Positions 41,339 to 48,067 of a stretch of DNA of 64,000 nucleotides are shown piece after piece. Numbering within the stretch: position 1 is the first letter of the stretch; each line of letters begins with the position of its first letter. The stretch comes from Escherichia phage ev_rybdy3. Both the position numbers and the translations under genes were made by a program. The notes beneath the pieces were generated by a model that did not search any database, was not told the DNA's origin, and saw nothing but the letters and a program-made list of their open reading frames with translations. Location: sequence record PQ819470.1; one strand, given 5' to 3'.

Positions 41339-41536
41339 ATGAAAAAGTGGATTGTTCGTGTACATGATAACACGACTGGAGAGTTAGTAGCTGTAGATTT
41401 TGTTAAGACTCGAGAACACGCACGTAGGGTCAAAAATCAATACAAATCTACTTTTAGACTTAATAAGGTTACACTAGGAAAAGCTATCGTGAATAGTGAA
41501 GGTGCTTTTTGTGTTAACAGTAAGGTTTATTATTAA
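41339..41536 (+). CDS. Small protein, tandem paralog 1 of 3
   Basis: 65 aa ending ...SKVYY; similar in length and C-terminus to next two ORFs. Confidence 0.45.
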   Translation: MKKWIVRVHDNTTGELVAVDFVKTREHARRVKNQYKSTFRLNKVTLGKAIVNSEGAFCVNSKVYY

Positions 41537-41745
41537 TGAGACCAATCACCATGAGACAATTTTGGTTAGCAAAGATTAAGTGGGCATCAGGTGGCATGAC
41601 TATGACTGCACTACCCACTCGCCAACAAGCTCGAGATTTTAAAAAGACTATGCTTACTGGTGACGTGGTCAACAGTATCAGTATCCATAAGGCCAAGGAG
41701 TATTCTTCTGGTCGTGTTTATATCAGCGGAAAGGTACATTACTAA
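41536..41745 (+). CDS. Small protein, tandem paralog 2 of 3
   Basis: 69 aa ending ...GKVHY. Confidence 0.45.
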   Translation: MRPITMRQFWLAKIKWASGGMTMTALPTRQQARDFKKTMLTGDVVNSISIHKAKEYSSGRVYISGKVHY

Positions 41746-41954
41746 TGAAAAAGATGTGGGCTATTCATGTTGTTTGGGATCTTGAGCAACACACGAGAAA
41801 AGATAACATCAAATTGTTTGACACTCGCAAAGAGGCTCGTATTGCTAAGAAACAGTTGAAGACTCTGGGCACAATAGTAAAAAGCGCTGACATACATCGC
41901 TGGTATGAAGACCCTAACACTGGTTCTTTTATGTCTAAAGTAATTTACTACTGA
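41745..41954 (+). CDS. Small protein, tandem paralog 3 of 3
   Basis: 69 aa ending ...KVIYY. Confidence 0.45.
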   Translation: MKKMWAIHVVWDLEQHTRKDNIKLFDTRKEARIAKKQLKTLGTIVKSADIHRWYEDPNTGSFMSKVIYY

Positions 41955-41978
41955 TTGGTAGTAGATATGATAACTCTC

Positions 41979-41987
41979 AAATGTATA
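41979..41987 (+). promoter_or_regulatory. Variant late-promoter-like element (aAATGTATA)
   Basis: One-mismatch copy of TAATGTATA about 40 nt upstream of the ORF at 42027. Confidence 0.3.
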
Positions 41988-42026
41988 TAGAGTACAATAA
42001 GAATTTGTATTTTACAGGAGAGAGTT

Positions 42027-42356
42027 ATGTTAGATTTGAGTAAAGTGGCCCCGCCCACTGAAGAGATTACAAAATCCAAGGTGATGCAACAGTTTTATCA
42101 TCGTGATATGCTTGGTCGCTTTATCAAGAATCGTGATGTTGTTGCTTGGTCTATTGGTAATCAGGGATATCTGTTGAAGGTTCTTCAGGTTACAGGTTCA
42201 ACTGCTAAGCGGGTTAAGGTGTATGACCCTGAAATGGGGCGTTCTAAGTCAGTAGACCCACAGAACTGCATCGTAATTACCCAGCAGGTAATGGATAATA
42301 TTGCACGTAACGTTGCTAACTCAGTTGAACTTGATGGAGAAAACCCAAATGCATAA
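42027..42356 (+). CDS. Hypothetical protein
   Basis: 109-aa ORF with AGGAG SD. Confidence 0.45.
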   Translation: MLDLSKVAPPTEEITKSKVMQQFYHRDMLGRFIKNRDVVAWSIGNQGYLLKVLQVTGSTAKRVKVYDPEMGRSKSVDPQNCIVITQQVMDNIARNVANSVELDGENPNA

Positions 42357-42912
42357 GAATGTTTTTGATTTACCTGAGATCGGTCGTGACAGTTATAGCA
42401 TGTTAGACCGGTCCGACCTATCAATCTCTCGCCTTGAAACAATGCAAGGTATGATTAGTGGAAACAGCCTAGAACACATCCTGAGCTGCTTACAAGCTAA
42501 CATGGAACTCTTGCATATCAAAGCTAAAAACTACCACTGGAACGTCTCTGGTGCAGGATTTCAGGGTGTTCATGGTATGTTTGATGAGCTGGAAGATTAC
42601 GCACGACAGGTAGGAGATCGTATTGCTGAGCGTATGCGATACCACTGCGTTAAGGTGGATGCTACAGCGGCTAACTACCTCTCCCATGCCTGGTTCTCAG
42701 AGGGGAATGCTGATCTAGATATGGACGGTATGCTCTCTGATATGTGCATGACCTTGATGTGTATTATTGAGAAGATGGATGAGTTTGATGGTGATTTAGC
42801 CACCTACCCTGTCGATCAGAGTATGCTTCAAGAAATTAATGAAGGTCTTGGCAAGTATTGCTACTTCGTCAAGAGCAACATGTCCCATTCAAGTGGTGAT
42901 GTGTCTTACTAA
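42349..42912 (+). CDS. Dps/ferritin-like protein
   Basis: LHIKAKNYHWNVSGAGFQGVHGMFDELEDYARQVGDRIAERM resembles Dps (..KT.NYHW.V.G..F..LH..FEE.Y....D.IAERI). Confidence 0.45.
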   Translation: MHKNVFDLPEIGRDSYSMLDRSDLSISRLETMQGMISGNSLEHILSCLQANMELLHIKAKNYHWNVSGAGFQGVHGMFDELEDYARQVGDRIAERMRYHCVKVDATAANYLSHAWFSEGNADLDMDGMLSDMCMTLMCIIEKMDEFDGDLATYPVDQSMLQEINEGLGKYCYFVKSNMSHSSGDVSY

Positions 42913-42973
42913 AACCTCCGCCCTGTCTCCTAACCCGAGGTGGGGCGAACTTATTTATAAGGATATAGATATA

Positions 42974-43152
42974 TGTTATCAGCAATCGTATGGGGTATTT
43001 GGGCTATCTTTATTGGTGGTGGTATTTATTGGGCTTCTGGTAAGCTTATTGAAGAAACTCCTGATAAGAAAGGTGAGATTCAAACAGCATCAACCATCAT
43101 GGTTATCGTAGCTGTTGTTATCCCATTCCTGCTTCACCTCCTGACTGCATAA
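42974..43152 (+). CDS. Small membrane protein (paralog pair with next)
   Basis: 59-aa ORF, two hydrophobic segments; N-terminus IVWGIWAIFIGGGIY like next ORF. Confidence 0.35.
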
Positions 43153-43161
43153 GGATTTGAT

Positions 43162-43347
43162 ATGATTTCACTGATTGTGTGGGCCGTGTGGTCGTTAATA
43201 GTTGGTACTGTTATATATAAAGCTCGAAATTTAGCAATTAAAGAAAACCCAGCAGAAGAGGATGTTAAAGCTATCAAGCTAGGTAGTGTTGTTCTGGTAC
43301 ATTTTGCTATAACACTACCTCTTGTTATTATTCTTTGTATGCTATAA
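43162..43347 (+). CDS. Small membrane protein
   Basis: 61 aa; LIVWAVWSLIVGTVIY...; two hydrophobic segments. Confidence 0.4.
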   Translation: MISLIVWAVWSLIVGTVIYKARNLAIKENPAEEDVKAIKLGSVVLVHFAITLPLVIILCML

Positions 43348-46723: not shown

Positions 46724-46905
46724 AAGTCGCTTTAGTTATTCGAGATTGTGGTGATGGTTCATCAACCATCGACTTCTACAAAAATATCGAACGAGCGTGT
46801 TTTGAGTGTGAAGAGTTCAATGAAGACACCTGCATGAATGATGGAGAACCTACTATCATTGACGTTCCTGATGAATTTGTACCACCGGGAGGGTGGAGTG
46901 AGTAA
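46720..46905 (+). CDS. Hypothetical protein
   Basis: 61-aa ORF. Confidence 0.35.
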   Translation: MKVALVIRDCGDGSSTIDFYKNIERACFECEEFNEDTCMNDGEPTIIDVPDEFVPPGGWSE

Positions 46906-47095
46906 TACTCAAGAGTCAGTAACAGAAGAGATTAAAGCTCAGATAGTTGATAAACTCTCTATCAGAGTTGACTCTAAAGACACCAAATGCTCTGGTATAC
47001 TGAAAATAGAACTCCTCTACAACGGAGAGACTATTTCTTTTGACGAGGTATATGCCTCTGATATTAAATACTTAGCAGAGTTTTAACATCATTCA

Positions 47096-47104
47096 TAATG
47101 TATA
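47096..47104 (+). promoter_or_regulatory. Putative phage-sigma-dependent promoter element (TAATGTATA)
   Basis: Exact motif about 37 nt upstream of ATG at 47141. Confidence 0.5.
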
Positions 47105-47140
47105 CTCCTTAGTGTACACTGATATATTAAGGAGTTCTAA

Positions 47141-47458
47141 ATGGCAGACCATGTAGGAAAGAGAGATTATGCACAAGAAAGACGTACCGCAATTGCCCGT
47201 GGTGAAACAGGCGTTGGGAGCAAGAGCGGAGATGCTCAGCGCCACCGTGCACGTCGCATCGTTGAAAAGCGCGATGGAAAAGCTGCTGTCAGAGGTAAAG
47301 ATGTTGGACACAAACGAGCTGTCAAGTCTGGAGGCTCTAATGCGTCAAGCAACTTACGTGTTGAATCAGTCAGCTCAAACCGTTCAAACGGCGGCAAAAG
47401 TGGTGATCGAGCTGGAAAAGCGGCTGGAGCACGCAAAGGAGCTTTAAGCTCATCGTAA
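47141..47458 (+). CDS. Small basic low-complexity protein (Arg/Lys/Gly/Ser-rich)
   Basis: AAGGAG SD 7 nt upstream; codon third-position bias matches phage genes; flanked by promoter motif and strong terminator. Confidence 0.5.
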   Translation: MADHVGKRDYAQERRTAIARGETGVGSKSGDAQRHRARRIVEKRDGKAAVRGKDVGHKRAVKSGGSNASSNLRVESVSSNRSNGGKSGDRAGKAAGARKGALSSS

Positions 47459-47463
47459 TATGA

Positions 47464-47492
47464 GGCTACCCAAATGGGTGGCCTTTTCTTTT
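47464..47492 (+). terminator. Rho-independent terminator
   Basis: GGCTACCC-AAAT-GGGTGGCC hairpin followed by TTTTCTTTT. Confidence 0.65.
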
Positions 47493-47526
47493 ATATAAAC
47501 CAAAATAAACTTCTTAGGTAATAAAT

Positions 47527-47781
47527 ATGTCTATTGTAAAAATCGTAAATATTTTTGATGTAACCAGAGATGGCAAGATTGTTAAGTGGACTTTCACTAA
47601 CCACCACAACAAATCAAACAAGATCATCGAACGGATGATTGAGATTAACCCAAAAACAGCTCGCACTAATGTAATCCTTCGTGGTGCTGATGGTAAATTC
47701 ATTTCTTATAAGAATAAGAACGTAGAAAAATCTTTCCGTGTTGCAGTAGAAAATCTCATCCCATTCCCTAAAGGAGTTTAA
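47527..47781 (+). CDS. Small protein, tandem paralog pair member 1
   Basis: KTARTNVILRGADGKFISYKNK...ENLIPFPKG. Confidence 0.45.
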   Translation: MSIVKIVNIFDVTRDGKIVKWTFTNHHNKSNKIIERMIEINPKTARTNVILRGADGKFISYKNKNVEKSFRVAVENLIPFPKGV

Positions 47782-47782
47782 T

Positions 47783-48067
47783 ATGAATAAGTTAGCTATG
47801 GTACAGATTCGAGATACATACCCTAACCGCCCGGAGCAGAAACCGCGTACTTGGTCTTATCTGTTGGCTGAAAGTAAGACTATTGACAAATACGCTGTAG
47901 GGATTGATGCTATTCCAACTAGTATCACATTGCTCCCTCACAAAACAGCCAGAACCCATGTGATGTTACGTGATAGTAAAGGTAAGTTTATCTCTTATCG
48001 TGATTCACGAATCAATAATGAAATTAAATCTGCTATGGAATTTTTGATGCCATTCCCAAGAGGTTGA
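47783..48067 (+). CDS. Small protein, tandem paralog pair member 2
   Basis: KTARTHVMLRDSKGKFISYRDS...EFLMPFPRG. Confidence 0.45.
   Translation: MNKLAMVQIRDTYPNRPEQKPRTWSYLLAESKTIDKYAVGIDAIPTSITLLPHKTARTHVMLRDSKGKFISYRDSRINNEIKSAMEFLMPFPRG

What the first reader, a model, noticed from the sequence alone, without database searches (positions are those of the whole stretch)
41339..48067. Additional tandem small-protein paralog sets (a triplet and a pair)
41339..41954 encodes three consecutive 65-69-aa proteins of similar composition, each ending in an aromatic pair (VYY, VHY, IYY). 47527..48067 encodes two proteins sharing KTARTxVxLR...GKFISY...PFP(K/R)G. Together with the 11-member family, this genome shows an unusual tendency to duplicate and diversify small genes.
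Basis: seen in the sequence. Interest (0 to 1): 0.4.

Follow-up and report, generated by a model that had tools for sequence, protein, structure and literature searches.

The report
Two small tandem paralog families, phiEco32-like phage
The triplet and the pair are real, old tandem duplications of two unrelated families of tiny, positively charged proteins found only in phiEco32-like E. coli phages; their function is unknown and the finding is correct but fairly ordinary.

Summary
The window is 100% identical to Escherichia phage ev_rybdy8, a phiEco32-like Kuravirus. 41339-41954 encodes three adjacent homologous proteins of 65-69 aa, orthologues of phiEco32 gp71/gp70/gp69 (PHROG 4939). 47527-48067 encodes two homologous proteins of 84 and 94 aa, orthologues of gp57/gp56 (PHROG 6814).

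The two families are unrelated to each other. Neither matches Pfam, NCBIfam or PDB sequences, and fold searches give only generic alpha+beta hits. All five genes are under purifying selection.

The duplications are old lineage traits, not events in this genome. A divergent metagenomic relative also carries dcd followed by three family genes. Copy number is 1-4 for the triplet family and 1-2 for the pair family.

Divergence is asymmetric. T2 and gp56 are tightly conserved. T1, T3 and gp57 evolve faster, with swapped variable segments.

All five proteins are basic (pI about 10). The triplet family keeps an invariant exposed TRxxARxxK helix stripe. The pair family keeps KTARTxVxLR...GKFISY plus a disordered PFP(K/R)G tail.

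My best guess, at low confidence, is non-enzymatic nucleic-acid-binding or partner-binding accessory factors of the replication and nucleotide-metabolism module. The function has not been tested.

The parts
41339..41536 (+). T1: 65-aa basic protein, orthologue of phiEco32 gp71 (PHROG 4939). Its ATG directly follows the dCTP deaminase stop codon (TAA|ATG).
   Evidence: ORF; PHROG hit E=1.2e-27; gene junction; phiEco32 map; dN/dS 0.27-0.42; pI 10.1. It is absent from Suseptimavirus phages and from EcoN5.
41536..41745 (+). T2: 69-aa basic protein (64 aa if it starts at 41551, as GenBank annotates), orthologue of gp70. It is the most conserved triplet member. Its start overlaps the T1 stop (TAATG).
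   Evidence: (E=6.8e-28); dN/dS 0.03-0.26. It is present in every Kuravirus and Suseptimavirus locus examined.
41745..41954 (+). T3: 69-aa basic protein, orthologue of gp69. Its start overlaps the T2 stop (TAATG). Its C-terminal hairpin occurs as several swapped variants among phages.
   Evidence: (E=8.3e-28). The AlphaFold2 model has pLDDT 87.9 with beta-beta-alpha-beta-beta topology. C-terminal segment, window versus EcoN5: dN 0.72 and omega about 1.3.
41979..41987 (+). AAATGTATA, the gp36-sigma middle promoter element (the phiEco32 P68 equivalent). It lies just downstream of T3 and upstream of the gp68 orthologue (42027), and marks the end of the transcription unit that carries the triplet.
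   Evidence: Motif search. The consensus tAATGTAtA and the list of promoter-bearing genes (6, 13, 26, 40, 58, 68) come from PMC8948821. P68 was used as a middle promoter in vitro and in cryo-EM in PMC12276001.
47097..47104 (+). AATGTATA, the gp36-type promoter element equivalent to phiEco32 P58, upstream of the very basic gp58 orthologue (47141-47458).
47462..47495 (+). Terminator-like GC-rich hairpin plus T-run between the gp58 orthologue and the pair.
   Evidence: (10-bp stem, 6 GC pairs, TTCTTTT tail) and the sequence. A terminator is annotated at the same place in SU7 and WFI101126.
47527..47781 (+). Pair member 1: 84-aa basic protein, orthologue of gp57 (PHROG 6814). It is the fast-evolving copy, with a hypervariable N-terminal half.
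   Evidence: E=3e-36. N-terminal half dN 0.34-0.47 against C-terminal half dN 0.01-0.09. Discrete N-terminal variants are shared between different phages.
47783..48067 (+). Pair member 2: 94-aa basic protein, orthologue of gp56 (PHROG 6814). It is the conserved copy and is closer to the single-copy form of distant relatives.
   Evidence: E=1.2e-36; dN/dS 0.03-0.11. The AlphaFold2 model has pLDDT 75.7, beta-beta-alpha-beta-alpha with a disordered PFPRG tail.

Best explanation
Both sets are genuine products of old tandem gene duplication in two unrelated, lineage-restricted families of very small (7-11 kDa), basic alpha+beta proteins of phiEco32-like podophages: gp71/70/69 and gp57/56. This part is shown.

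After duplication the copies diverged asymmetrically. One copy stayed tightly constrained (T2, gp56). The others evolve faster and exchange whole variable segments between phages (the T3 C-terminal hairpin, the gp57 N-terminal half). This part is also shown.

The mechanism is inferred. These look like non-enzymatic binding proteins made with the DNA-replication and nucleotide-metabolism genes. Each family keeps one invariant, positively charged surface. In the triplet family this is the solvent-facing stripe T27-R28-x-x-A31-R32-x-x-K35 on the only helix. In the pair family it is the KTARTxVxLR...GKFISY strands plus a conserved disordered PFP(K/R)G tail. That surface most likely contacts a common polyanionic ligend such as DNA or RNA, or an acidic site on a replication or transcription protein. 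The variable loops and halves would give each paralog a different specificity.

The confidence of 0.4 covers the whole statement. Taken separately, the paralogy and duplication part is about 0.95 and the nucleic-acid or polyanion-binding mechanism about 0.3.
For: Homology.

Real genes under purifying selection: omega 0.03-0.57. All have Shine-Dalgarno sequences, and stop/start codons abut or overlap at dcd-T1-T2-T3.

Age of the duplications: phiEco32 has the same five genes. A divergent metagenomic relative has dcd followed by three overlapping family genes. T2 and T3 lineages are shared by Kuravirus and Suseptimavirus (NJ tree). Both pair copies are present in Suseptimavirus, and a single syntenic copy occurs in more distant relatives.

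Asymmetric divergence and segment swapping.

Binding-protein inference: there is no catalytic-family match. The folds are small and confidently or moderately well predicted. The only invariant residues across 24 members at about 25% identity are W5, T27, R28, A31, R32 and K35; on a helical wheel R28, A31, R32 and K35 share one face. pI is 9.8-10.4 for all five proteins and 9.7-10.9 across the triplet family.

Genomic setting: the genes lie between dCTP deaminase, Dps-like protein, thioredoxin, ThyX, PhoH and DNA polymerase, next to the mapped middle promoters P68 and P58.

Against: Basic charge alone is weak evidence, because 26% of small ORFs in this window have pI >= 9.7.

T1 and the fourth, thioredoxin-linked copy come and go between phages. 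That pattern fits accessory or host-interaction genes better than core replication factors.

Neither family was detected in the SU10 proteome, so abundance and timing are unknown.

No experiment on any member was found in the searched literature.
Confidence: 0.4

Rival explanations
1. They are host-takeover or anti-defence inhibitors that bind host proteins. On this view the paralog arrays are small arsenals, with each copy tuned to a different host target or allele and the variable segments diversifying in an arms race.
Confidence: 0.3
2. The paralogs are subunits of one hetero-oligomer (T1/T2/T3, or at least T2/T3, and gp57/gp56). They would be made in fixed ratios by translational coupling and serve as a scaffold or regulator of the adjacent nucleotide-metabolism enzymes: dCTP deaminase, thioredoxin and ThyX.
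For: The TAATG stop/start overlaps at T1/T2 and T2/T3, and the TAA|ATG junction with dcd, are conserved even in the divergent relative L010. T2 and T3 always occur together directly before P68. Extra family copies sit directly after the thioredoxin gene.
Against: Overlapping stop and start codons are common throughout compact phage genomes. Salmonella phage 7-11 has a single family member that is not next to dcd. T1 is dispensable.
Confidence: 0.12
3. One or both families are extremely diverged members of the bacterial and prophage DUF2188 family (PF09954). DUF2188 shares the pattern W-x-V ... T-x-x-E-A ... IHGRDG-K-I ... SYGNDP-x-PPKG.
For: Motifs look alike by eye. My remembered DUF2188 consensus is a valid PF09954 sequence (E=3.5e-32). 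hhalign of seven real DUF2188 domains against the triplet profile aligns exactly the expected W...T(R/x)xEA segment (pairwise E=0.0022). Against the pair profile it aligns the LR..DGKFISY segment.
Against: The HH-suite probabilities are only 13% and 0.3%. None of the 24 diverse triplet-family members, and none of the window's five proteins, hits PF09954 even at permissive thresholds (E <= 10 and E <= 1). DUF2188 itself has no known function, so membership would explain little.
Confidence: 0.08
4. The similarity is a compositional coincidence, or some of the ORFs are not genes.
For: T1 versus T3 alone is marginal (E=0.096). The triplet does not pass 1e-3 in a plain all-against-all BLASTP of the window.
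Against: The transitive links T1-T2 and T2-T3 are significant. An independent remote-homology clustering (PHROGs) groups them. Six residues are invariant across 24 diverse members. There are 22 real 50%-identity clusters in 1.8 billion representative proteins, all 65-75 aa. dN/dS is well below 1. The gene order is conserved.
Confidence: 0.02

Closest known systems
phiEco32 gp71, gp70 and gp69 (phi32_71/70/69); PHROG 4939, unknown function
   Same: They are direct orthologues with the same order, the same overlaps and the same position between dCTP deaminase and the P68 middle promoter. The proteins are 92-97% identical to the window's.
   Different: Nothing substantive. No function has been assigned to these proteins in any record or paper I could search.
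phiEco32 gp57 and gp56 (phi32_57/56); PHROG 6814, unknown function
   Same: They are direct orthologues in the same position, after the gp58 terminator and before gp55, gp54 and the DNA polymerase.
   Different: The window's gp57 carries a different N-terminal variant from phiEco32's, while the C-terminal half is nearly identical.
DUF2188 (Pfam PF09954), small proteins of bacteria and temperate phages
   Same: The size is similar (about 60-75 aa). The order of motifs by eye is similar: a Trp-containing strand, a T-x-x-E-A helix start, a strand ending in a D-G-K turn, and a Pro-rich C-terminal PPKG-like tail.
   Different: The resemblance is not statistically supported (hhalign probability 13% and 0.3%; no Pfam hit). 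No single phage family carries all the motifs: the triplet family lacks the PPKG tail and the pair family lacks the W/TxxEA part.
Small phage-encoded protein inhibitors (phi29 p56, T4 Dmd, T7 Gp2)
The 11-member small-protein family of the same genome (19610-26589)
   Same: It is another lineage-specific family of roughly 70-90-aa paralogs, several of them adjacent.
   Different: It is unrelated in sequence (hhalign probability <= 0.2%). Its pI values are mixed (4.9-9.8), and it lies in a different part of the genome.

Membership tests
   BLASTP gives 2e-5, 6e-6 and 0.096 for the triplet and 5e-15 for the pair. A window-only iterative profile search recovers exactly these sets.
   The coordinates abut or overlap by one base. 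dN/dS is 0.03-0.57. The genes are annotated as CDS in the identical GenBank record.
PHROG 4939 | Full-length match to the family HMM | tested here: met
   T1, T2 and T3 match at E=1.2e-27, 6.8e-28 and 8.3e-28, covering 65-69 residues of the 67-position profile.
PHROG 6814 | Full-length match to the family HMM | tested here: met
   E=3e-36 and 1.2e-36, full length.
DUF2188 (PF09954) | Match to the Pfam HMM above the gathering score (22 bits) | tested here: not met
   There is no PF09954 hit for the five proteins (E<=1) or for any of 24 diverse triplet-family members (E<=10). The positive control scored 110.8 bits.
DUF2188 (PF09954) | Profile-profile homology (HH-suite probability high) | tested here: inconclusive
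   hhalign of seven real DUF2188 domains gives probability 13% and E 0.0022 over 23 columns against the triplet profile, and probability 0.3% against the pair profile.
Nucleic-acid-binding protein (functional class) | Direct binding to DNA or RNA | not testable with these tools
   Support is indirect only: pI about 10 across the family and an invariant exposed Arg/Arg/Lys stripe.
Virion or internal protein | Detected in particle proteomes | tested here: not met
   SU10 mass spectrometry lists 34 proteins, including some non-structural ones. CDS 53/54 (the pair) and 69-71 (the triplet) are absent (PMC4281155). Small proteins are easily missed, so this is weak negative evidence.

The most novel reading that the evidence does not exclude
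T2 and T3, the constant core of the array, and gp56/gp57 might form paralogous hetero-oligomers with a previously undescribed nucleic-acid-binding fold specific to C3-morphotype podophages. They would act at the phage replication or transcription machinery. For example, they might help the switch at the adjacent gp36/gp79-dependent middle promoters, or stand in for a phage single-strand-binding or accessory replication factor; no such factor is annotated in the stretch of phiEco32 that I inspected (gp26-gp90). The swappable segments would tune partner specificity.
Probability: 0.1. Interest if true: 0.55.

Novelty: new member of a known kind. Interest (0 to 1): 0.25.

Why it matters
The practical value is modest. 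The work turns five 'hypothetical protein' lines into two defined families. Each now has clear signatures, a confident to moderate structure model, a map of conserved versus swappable parts, and a copy-number history across phiEco32-like phages.

Kuraviruses are being isolated repeatedly as therapy candidates. It helps to know which small genes are core (T2, T3, gp56) and which are variable (T1, the fourth copy, the gp57 N-terminal half) when engineering genomes or choosing deletion targets. If the invariant basic surfaces turn out to bind nucleic acid or a replication protein, these would be new minimal binding modules. As it stands, this is a correct but unsurprising example of duplication and divergence of small phage genes.

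Tried and rejected
1. A relationship between the two families: hhalign probability 0.2%. Rejected.
2. A relationship of either family to the 11-member family: probability <= 0.2%. Rejected.
3. Pfam, NCBIfam and PDB-sequence searches with single sequences and profiles found nothing.
5. The DUF2188 lead is not supported statistically.
6. The unrelated small genes between dcd and T1 or T2 in WFI101126, XT32, myPSH2311, EcoN5 and ECBP2 are not family members.
7. The search for related loci with the diverse alignment failed because it has no conserved 7-10-column stretch. tblastn with distant members found no additional GenBank phages.
8. The 648-aa hit P0224 from the exhaustive search is a low-complexity repeat protein and was dismissed.
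9. The two primary phiEco32 papers (PMC2587145, PMC3275717) are not held in the library. The exact temporal class of gp69-71 therefore could not be read. SU10 authors list CDS 74 as early and CDS 68 and below as middle.
10. Basic pI as an argument was tempered after I found that 26% of small ORFs in the window are equally basic.
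Full report
IDENTITY OF THE WINDOW. The 7.5 kb around the finding is 100% identical to Escherichia phage ev_rybdy8 (PQ819471.1). It is 86-99% identical to about 100 phiEco32-like coliphages of the Gordonclarkvirinae, mostly genus Kuravirus. In the identical record all five genes are 'hypothetical protein'. Against the phiEco32 reference map, the triplet corresponds to gp71 (T1), gp70 (T2) and gp69 (T3), and the pair to gp57 and gp56.

THE OBSERVATION.
- Triplet BLASTP: T1/T2 E=2e-5, T2/T3 E=6e-6, T1/T3 E=0.096.
- Pair BLASTP: E=5e-15, with the shared KTARTxVxLR, GKFISY and PFP(K/R)G motifs.
- In a plain all-against-all BLASTP of the 508 ORFs of the window, only the pair passes 1e-3.
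- An iterative profile search using window sequences alone recovers exactly the three and exactly the two.
- PHROGs, an independent remote-homology clustering, puts all three in phrog_4939 (E about 1e-27 each) and both in phrog_6814 (E about 1e-36).
- Family HMMs find no further member in the window.

One detail needs correcting. The conserved C-terminal feature of the triplet family is a terminal Tyr, present in 21 of 24 diverse members, rather than an aromatic pair.

THEY ARE REAL GENES.
- Nei-Gojobori dN/dS among five Kuraviruses is 0.27-0.42 for T1, 0.03-0.26 for T2, 0.20-0.57 for T3, 0.11-0.52 for gp57 and 0.03-0.11 for gp56.
- Each gene has a Shine-Dalgarno sequence.
- T1 starts immediately after the dCTP deaminase stop (TAA|ATG).
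- T1/T2 and T2/T3 overlap as TAATG.
- gp56 starts two bases after the gp57 stop.

TRANSCRIPTIONAL SETTING. The phiEco32 sigma factor gp36 recognises a single element, tAATGTAtA. Mapped promoters lie upstream of genes 6, 13, 26, 40, 58 and 68 (PMC8948821). P68 is an experimentally used middle promoter (PMC12276001). In the window the element occurs at 41980, 25 nt after the T3 stop and before the gp68 orthologue, and at 47097, before the gp58 orthologue. A strong terminator-like hairpin at 47462-47485 separates gp58 from the pair. The triplet is therefore the last block of the unit that also carries primase/helicase, the exonuclease subunit, a nucleotidyltransferase and dCTP deaminase. The pair is the first block after the gp58 terminator and precedes gp55, gp54 and the DNA polymerase. 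I could not read the primary macroarray paper. The SU10 authors class CDS 74 as early and CDS 68 and below as middle.

WHAT THE PROTEINS LOOK LIKE. There is no Pfam, NCBIfam or PDB-sequence match for any member or for the family profiles.
- Triplet model. AlphaFold2 with a 91-sequence alignment gives T3 a confident model (pLDDT 87.9): strand 2-11, strand 21-25, helix 28-40, strand 45-56, strand 60-63.
- Pair model. gp56 gets a moderate model (pLDDT 75.7): two strands, a helix, a long strand with a short return, a second helix, and a disordered tail that carries the conserved PFPRG.
- The two families are unrelated to each other (hhalign probability 0.2%) and to the 11-member family elsewhere in the window.

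FAMILY SIGNATURES.
- Triplet family. An exhaustive HMM search of 1.8 billion representative proteins finds only 22 genuine clusters, all 65-75 aa. Across 24 diverse members at about 25% identity the invariant residues are W5, T27, R28, A31, R32 and K35. With the helix assigned to 28-40, R28, A31, R32 and K35 fall on one helical face, opposite the hydrophobic positions 33, 37 and 41. This is an exposed basic stripe, inferred from the sequence together.
- Pair family. The invariant positions are T55, R57, T58, R63, G67, F69, S71, Y72, P90, P92 and G94.
- Charge. All five proteins are basic, with pI 9.8-10.4 and net charge +6 to +9. The whole triplet family lies within pI 9.7-10.9. However, 26% of small ORFs in the window are equally basic, so charge alone is weak evidence.

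EVOLUTIONARY HISTORY.
- Age of the triplet. The duplications are old. A divergent metagenomic relative (L010/L011) has dCTP deaminase followed by three overlapping family genes, then the gp68 and Dps-like genes.
- T2 and T3. These lineages are shared by Kuravirus and Suseptimavirus and always sit directly before P68.
- T1. It is absent from the Suseptimavirus phages and from EcoN5, where an HNH endonuclease and unrelated ORFs occupy its place.
- Fourth lineage. WFI101126, EcoN5, ECBP2 and EK010 carry an additional family gene directly after the thioredoxin gene. The window and phiEco32 lack it.
- Salmonella phage 7-11. It has one member, located elsewhere in the genome (E=1.2e-6).
- Pair family. 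It is present as two genes in every Kuravirus and Suseptimavirus examined. It is a single gene, in the same position between the gp58 homologue and the DNA polymerase, in more distant metagenomic relatives. The single-copy form resembles gp56.
- Asymmetric divergence. T2 and gp56 are tightly constrained. The T3 C-terminal hairpin exists in at least four very different versions on an otherwise conserved protein; the window-versus-EcoN5 comparison gives dN 0.72 and omega about 1.3. Some of these versions resemble the T2 C-terminus, which suggests exchange between paralogs; I infer this. The gp57 N-terminal half exists in discrete versions shared by different phages, while its C-terminal half is nearly invariant. 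In that half dS is raised as well as dN, which points to segment exchange rather than in-place positive selection.

MECHANISM. Nothing catalytic is recognisable, and the proteins are too small for most enzymes. In each family everything varies except one positively charged surface. The most economical reading is a family of binding proteins whose constant surface contacts a common polyanionic ligand and whose variable parts set specificity. Nucleic acid is the first candidate, given the replication and nucleotide-metabolism neighbourhood. I put this at about 0.3.

The main rival is that they are host-directed inhibitors or anti-defence factors. It is supported by copy-number variation, segment swapping and the accessory behaviour of T1. 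It is weakened by the strong conservation and fixed synteny of T2, T3 and gp56. I also put this at about 0.3.

A hetero-oligomer of paralogs is suggested by the conserved stop/start overlaps but could not be tested.

A resemblance to DUF2188 that I noticed by eye was tested and is not supported.

NOVELTY AND VERDICT. The genes have been in databases since phiEco32 was sequenced, and PHROGs already groups the paralogs. No paper that I could search discusses them. The phenomenon, lineage-specific tandem duplication and divergence of small phage genes, is well known. Its claim of an 'unusual' tendency is descriptively backed for this genome (18 of about 124 gene-like ORFs in four families) but was not compared with other phages. 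Interest is low to moderate.

Noticed in passing
window 42973-43152 and 43162-43347 (+): This is a third tandem pair that the finding does not list: two predicted membrane mini-proteins of 59 and 61 aa. Both hit PHROG 9296 (E=3.6e-34 and 2.3e-30), and pairwise BLASTP gives 1.35e-7. The annotated maps of phiEco32, Bas90 and EK010 show one gene of this size at this position. The window, SU7, ECBP2 and WFI101126 show two. Family membership was tested only for the window's two proteins.
   Followed up: partly
It is unrelated to both families studied here.
   Followed up: partly
window 48688-48716 (+): There is a perfect sigma-70 consensus promoter (TTGACA, 17 nt, TATAAT, with an extended -10 TG) about 30 nt inside the 5' end of the DNA polymerase ORF, which starts with GTG at 48661. 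It is the only 12/12 match in 38000-52000. Its function, if any, is unknown.
   Followed up: no
window 43935-44210 (+), inside thyX (43829-44485): A 91-codon ORF in another frame of thyX stays open in phiEco32, Bas90, WFI101126, EcoN5 and the divergent relative L010 (89 codons), and is shorter in Suseptimavirus. Its product shows a weak similarity (39% over 49 aa, about 1e-4) to the small gene at 46838/46898-47086, with no DNA-level repeat. It could be a by-product of thyX conservation or an overprinted gene.
   Followed up: partly
window 47141-47458 (+): The gp58 orthologue has its own gp36-type promoter and a terminator. It is extremely basic (pI 11.5) and Gly/Ser/Lys/Arg-rich. It is conserved as far as Salmonella phage 7-11 and the distant metagenomic relatives, and was detected by mass spectrometry in SU10 preparations (CDS 56, by my mapping from size and gene order). 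By eye, H-K-R-x-x-K-S-G-G-S-N-x-x-x-N-L-R recalls an HNH-type motif, but Pfam finds nothing.
   Followed up: partly
related loci L016, L017, L018, L019, L014 (interval between dcd and the P68 promoter): This interval is an insertion hot spot. It holds an HNH endonuclease plus two unrelated small ORFs in EcoN5, an unrelated acidic 68-aa gene in WFI101126, XT32 and myPSH2311, and a 63-aa hydrophobic ORF in ECBP2. T3 is truncated in myPSH2311.
   Followed up: partly
proteins P0088 and P0089: Some T3 orthologues carry a C-terminus (…FEFSGDRGSYISGDVYY) that resembles the T2 C-terminus (…EYSSGRVYISGKVHY) more than the T3 one. This suggests recombination between paralogs.
   Followed up: no
GenBank annotations of orthologues: Several product names in related records look unreliable. 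The gp57 orthologue is called 'autotransporter adhesin' in EcoN5, and the same name appears under the PE006 match. The Dps-like gene is called 'integrase' in EcoN5 and probably in other records that list that name. A 77-aa protein (44883-45116) is called 'anti-restriction nuclease', and a 109-aa protein (45482-45811) 'DNA ligase'.
   Followed up: no
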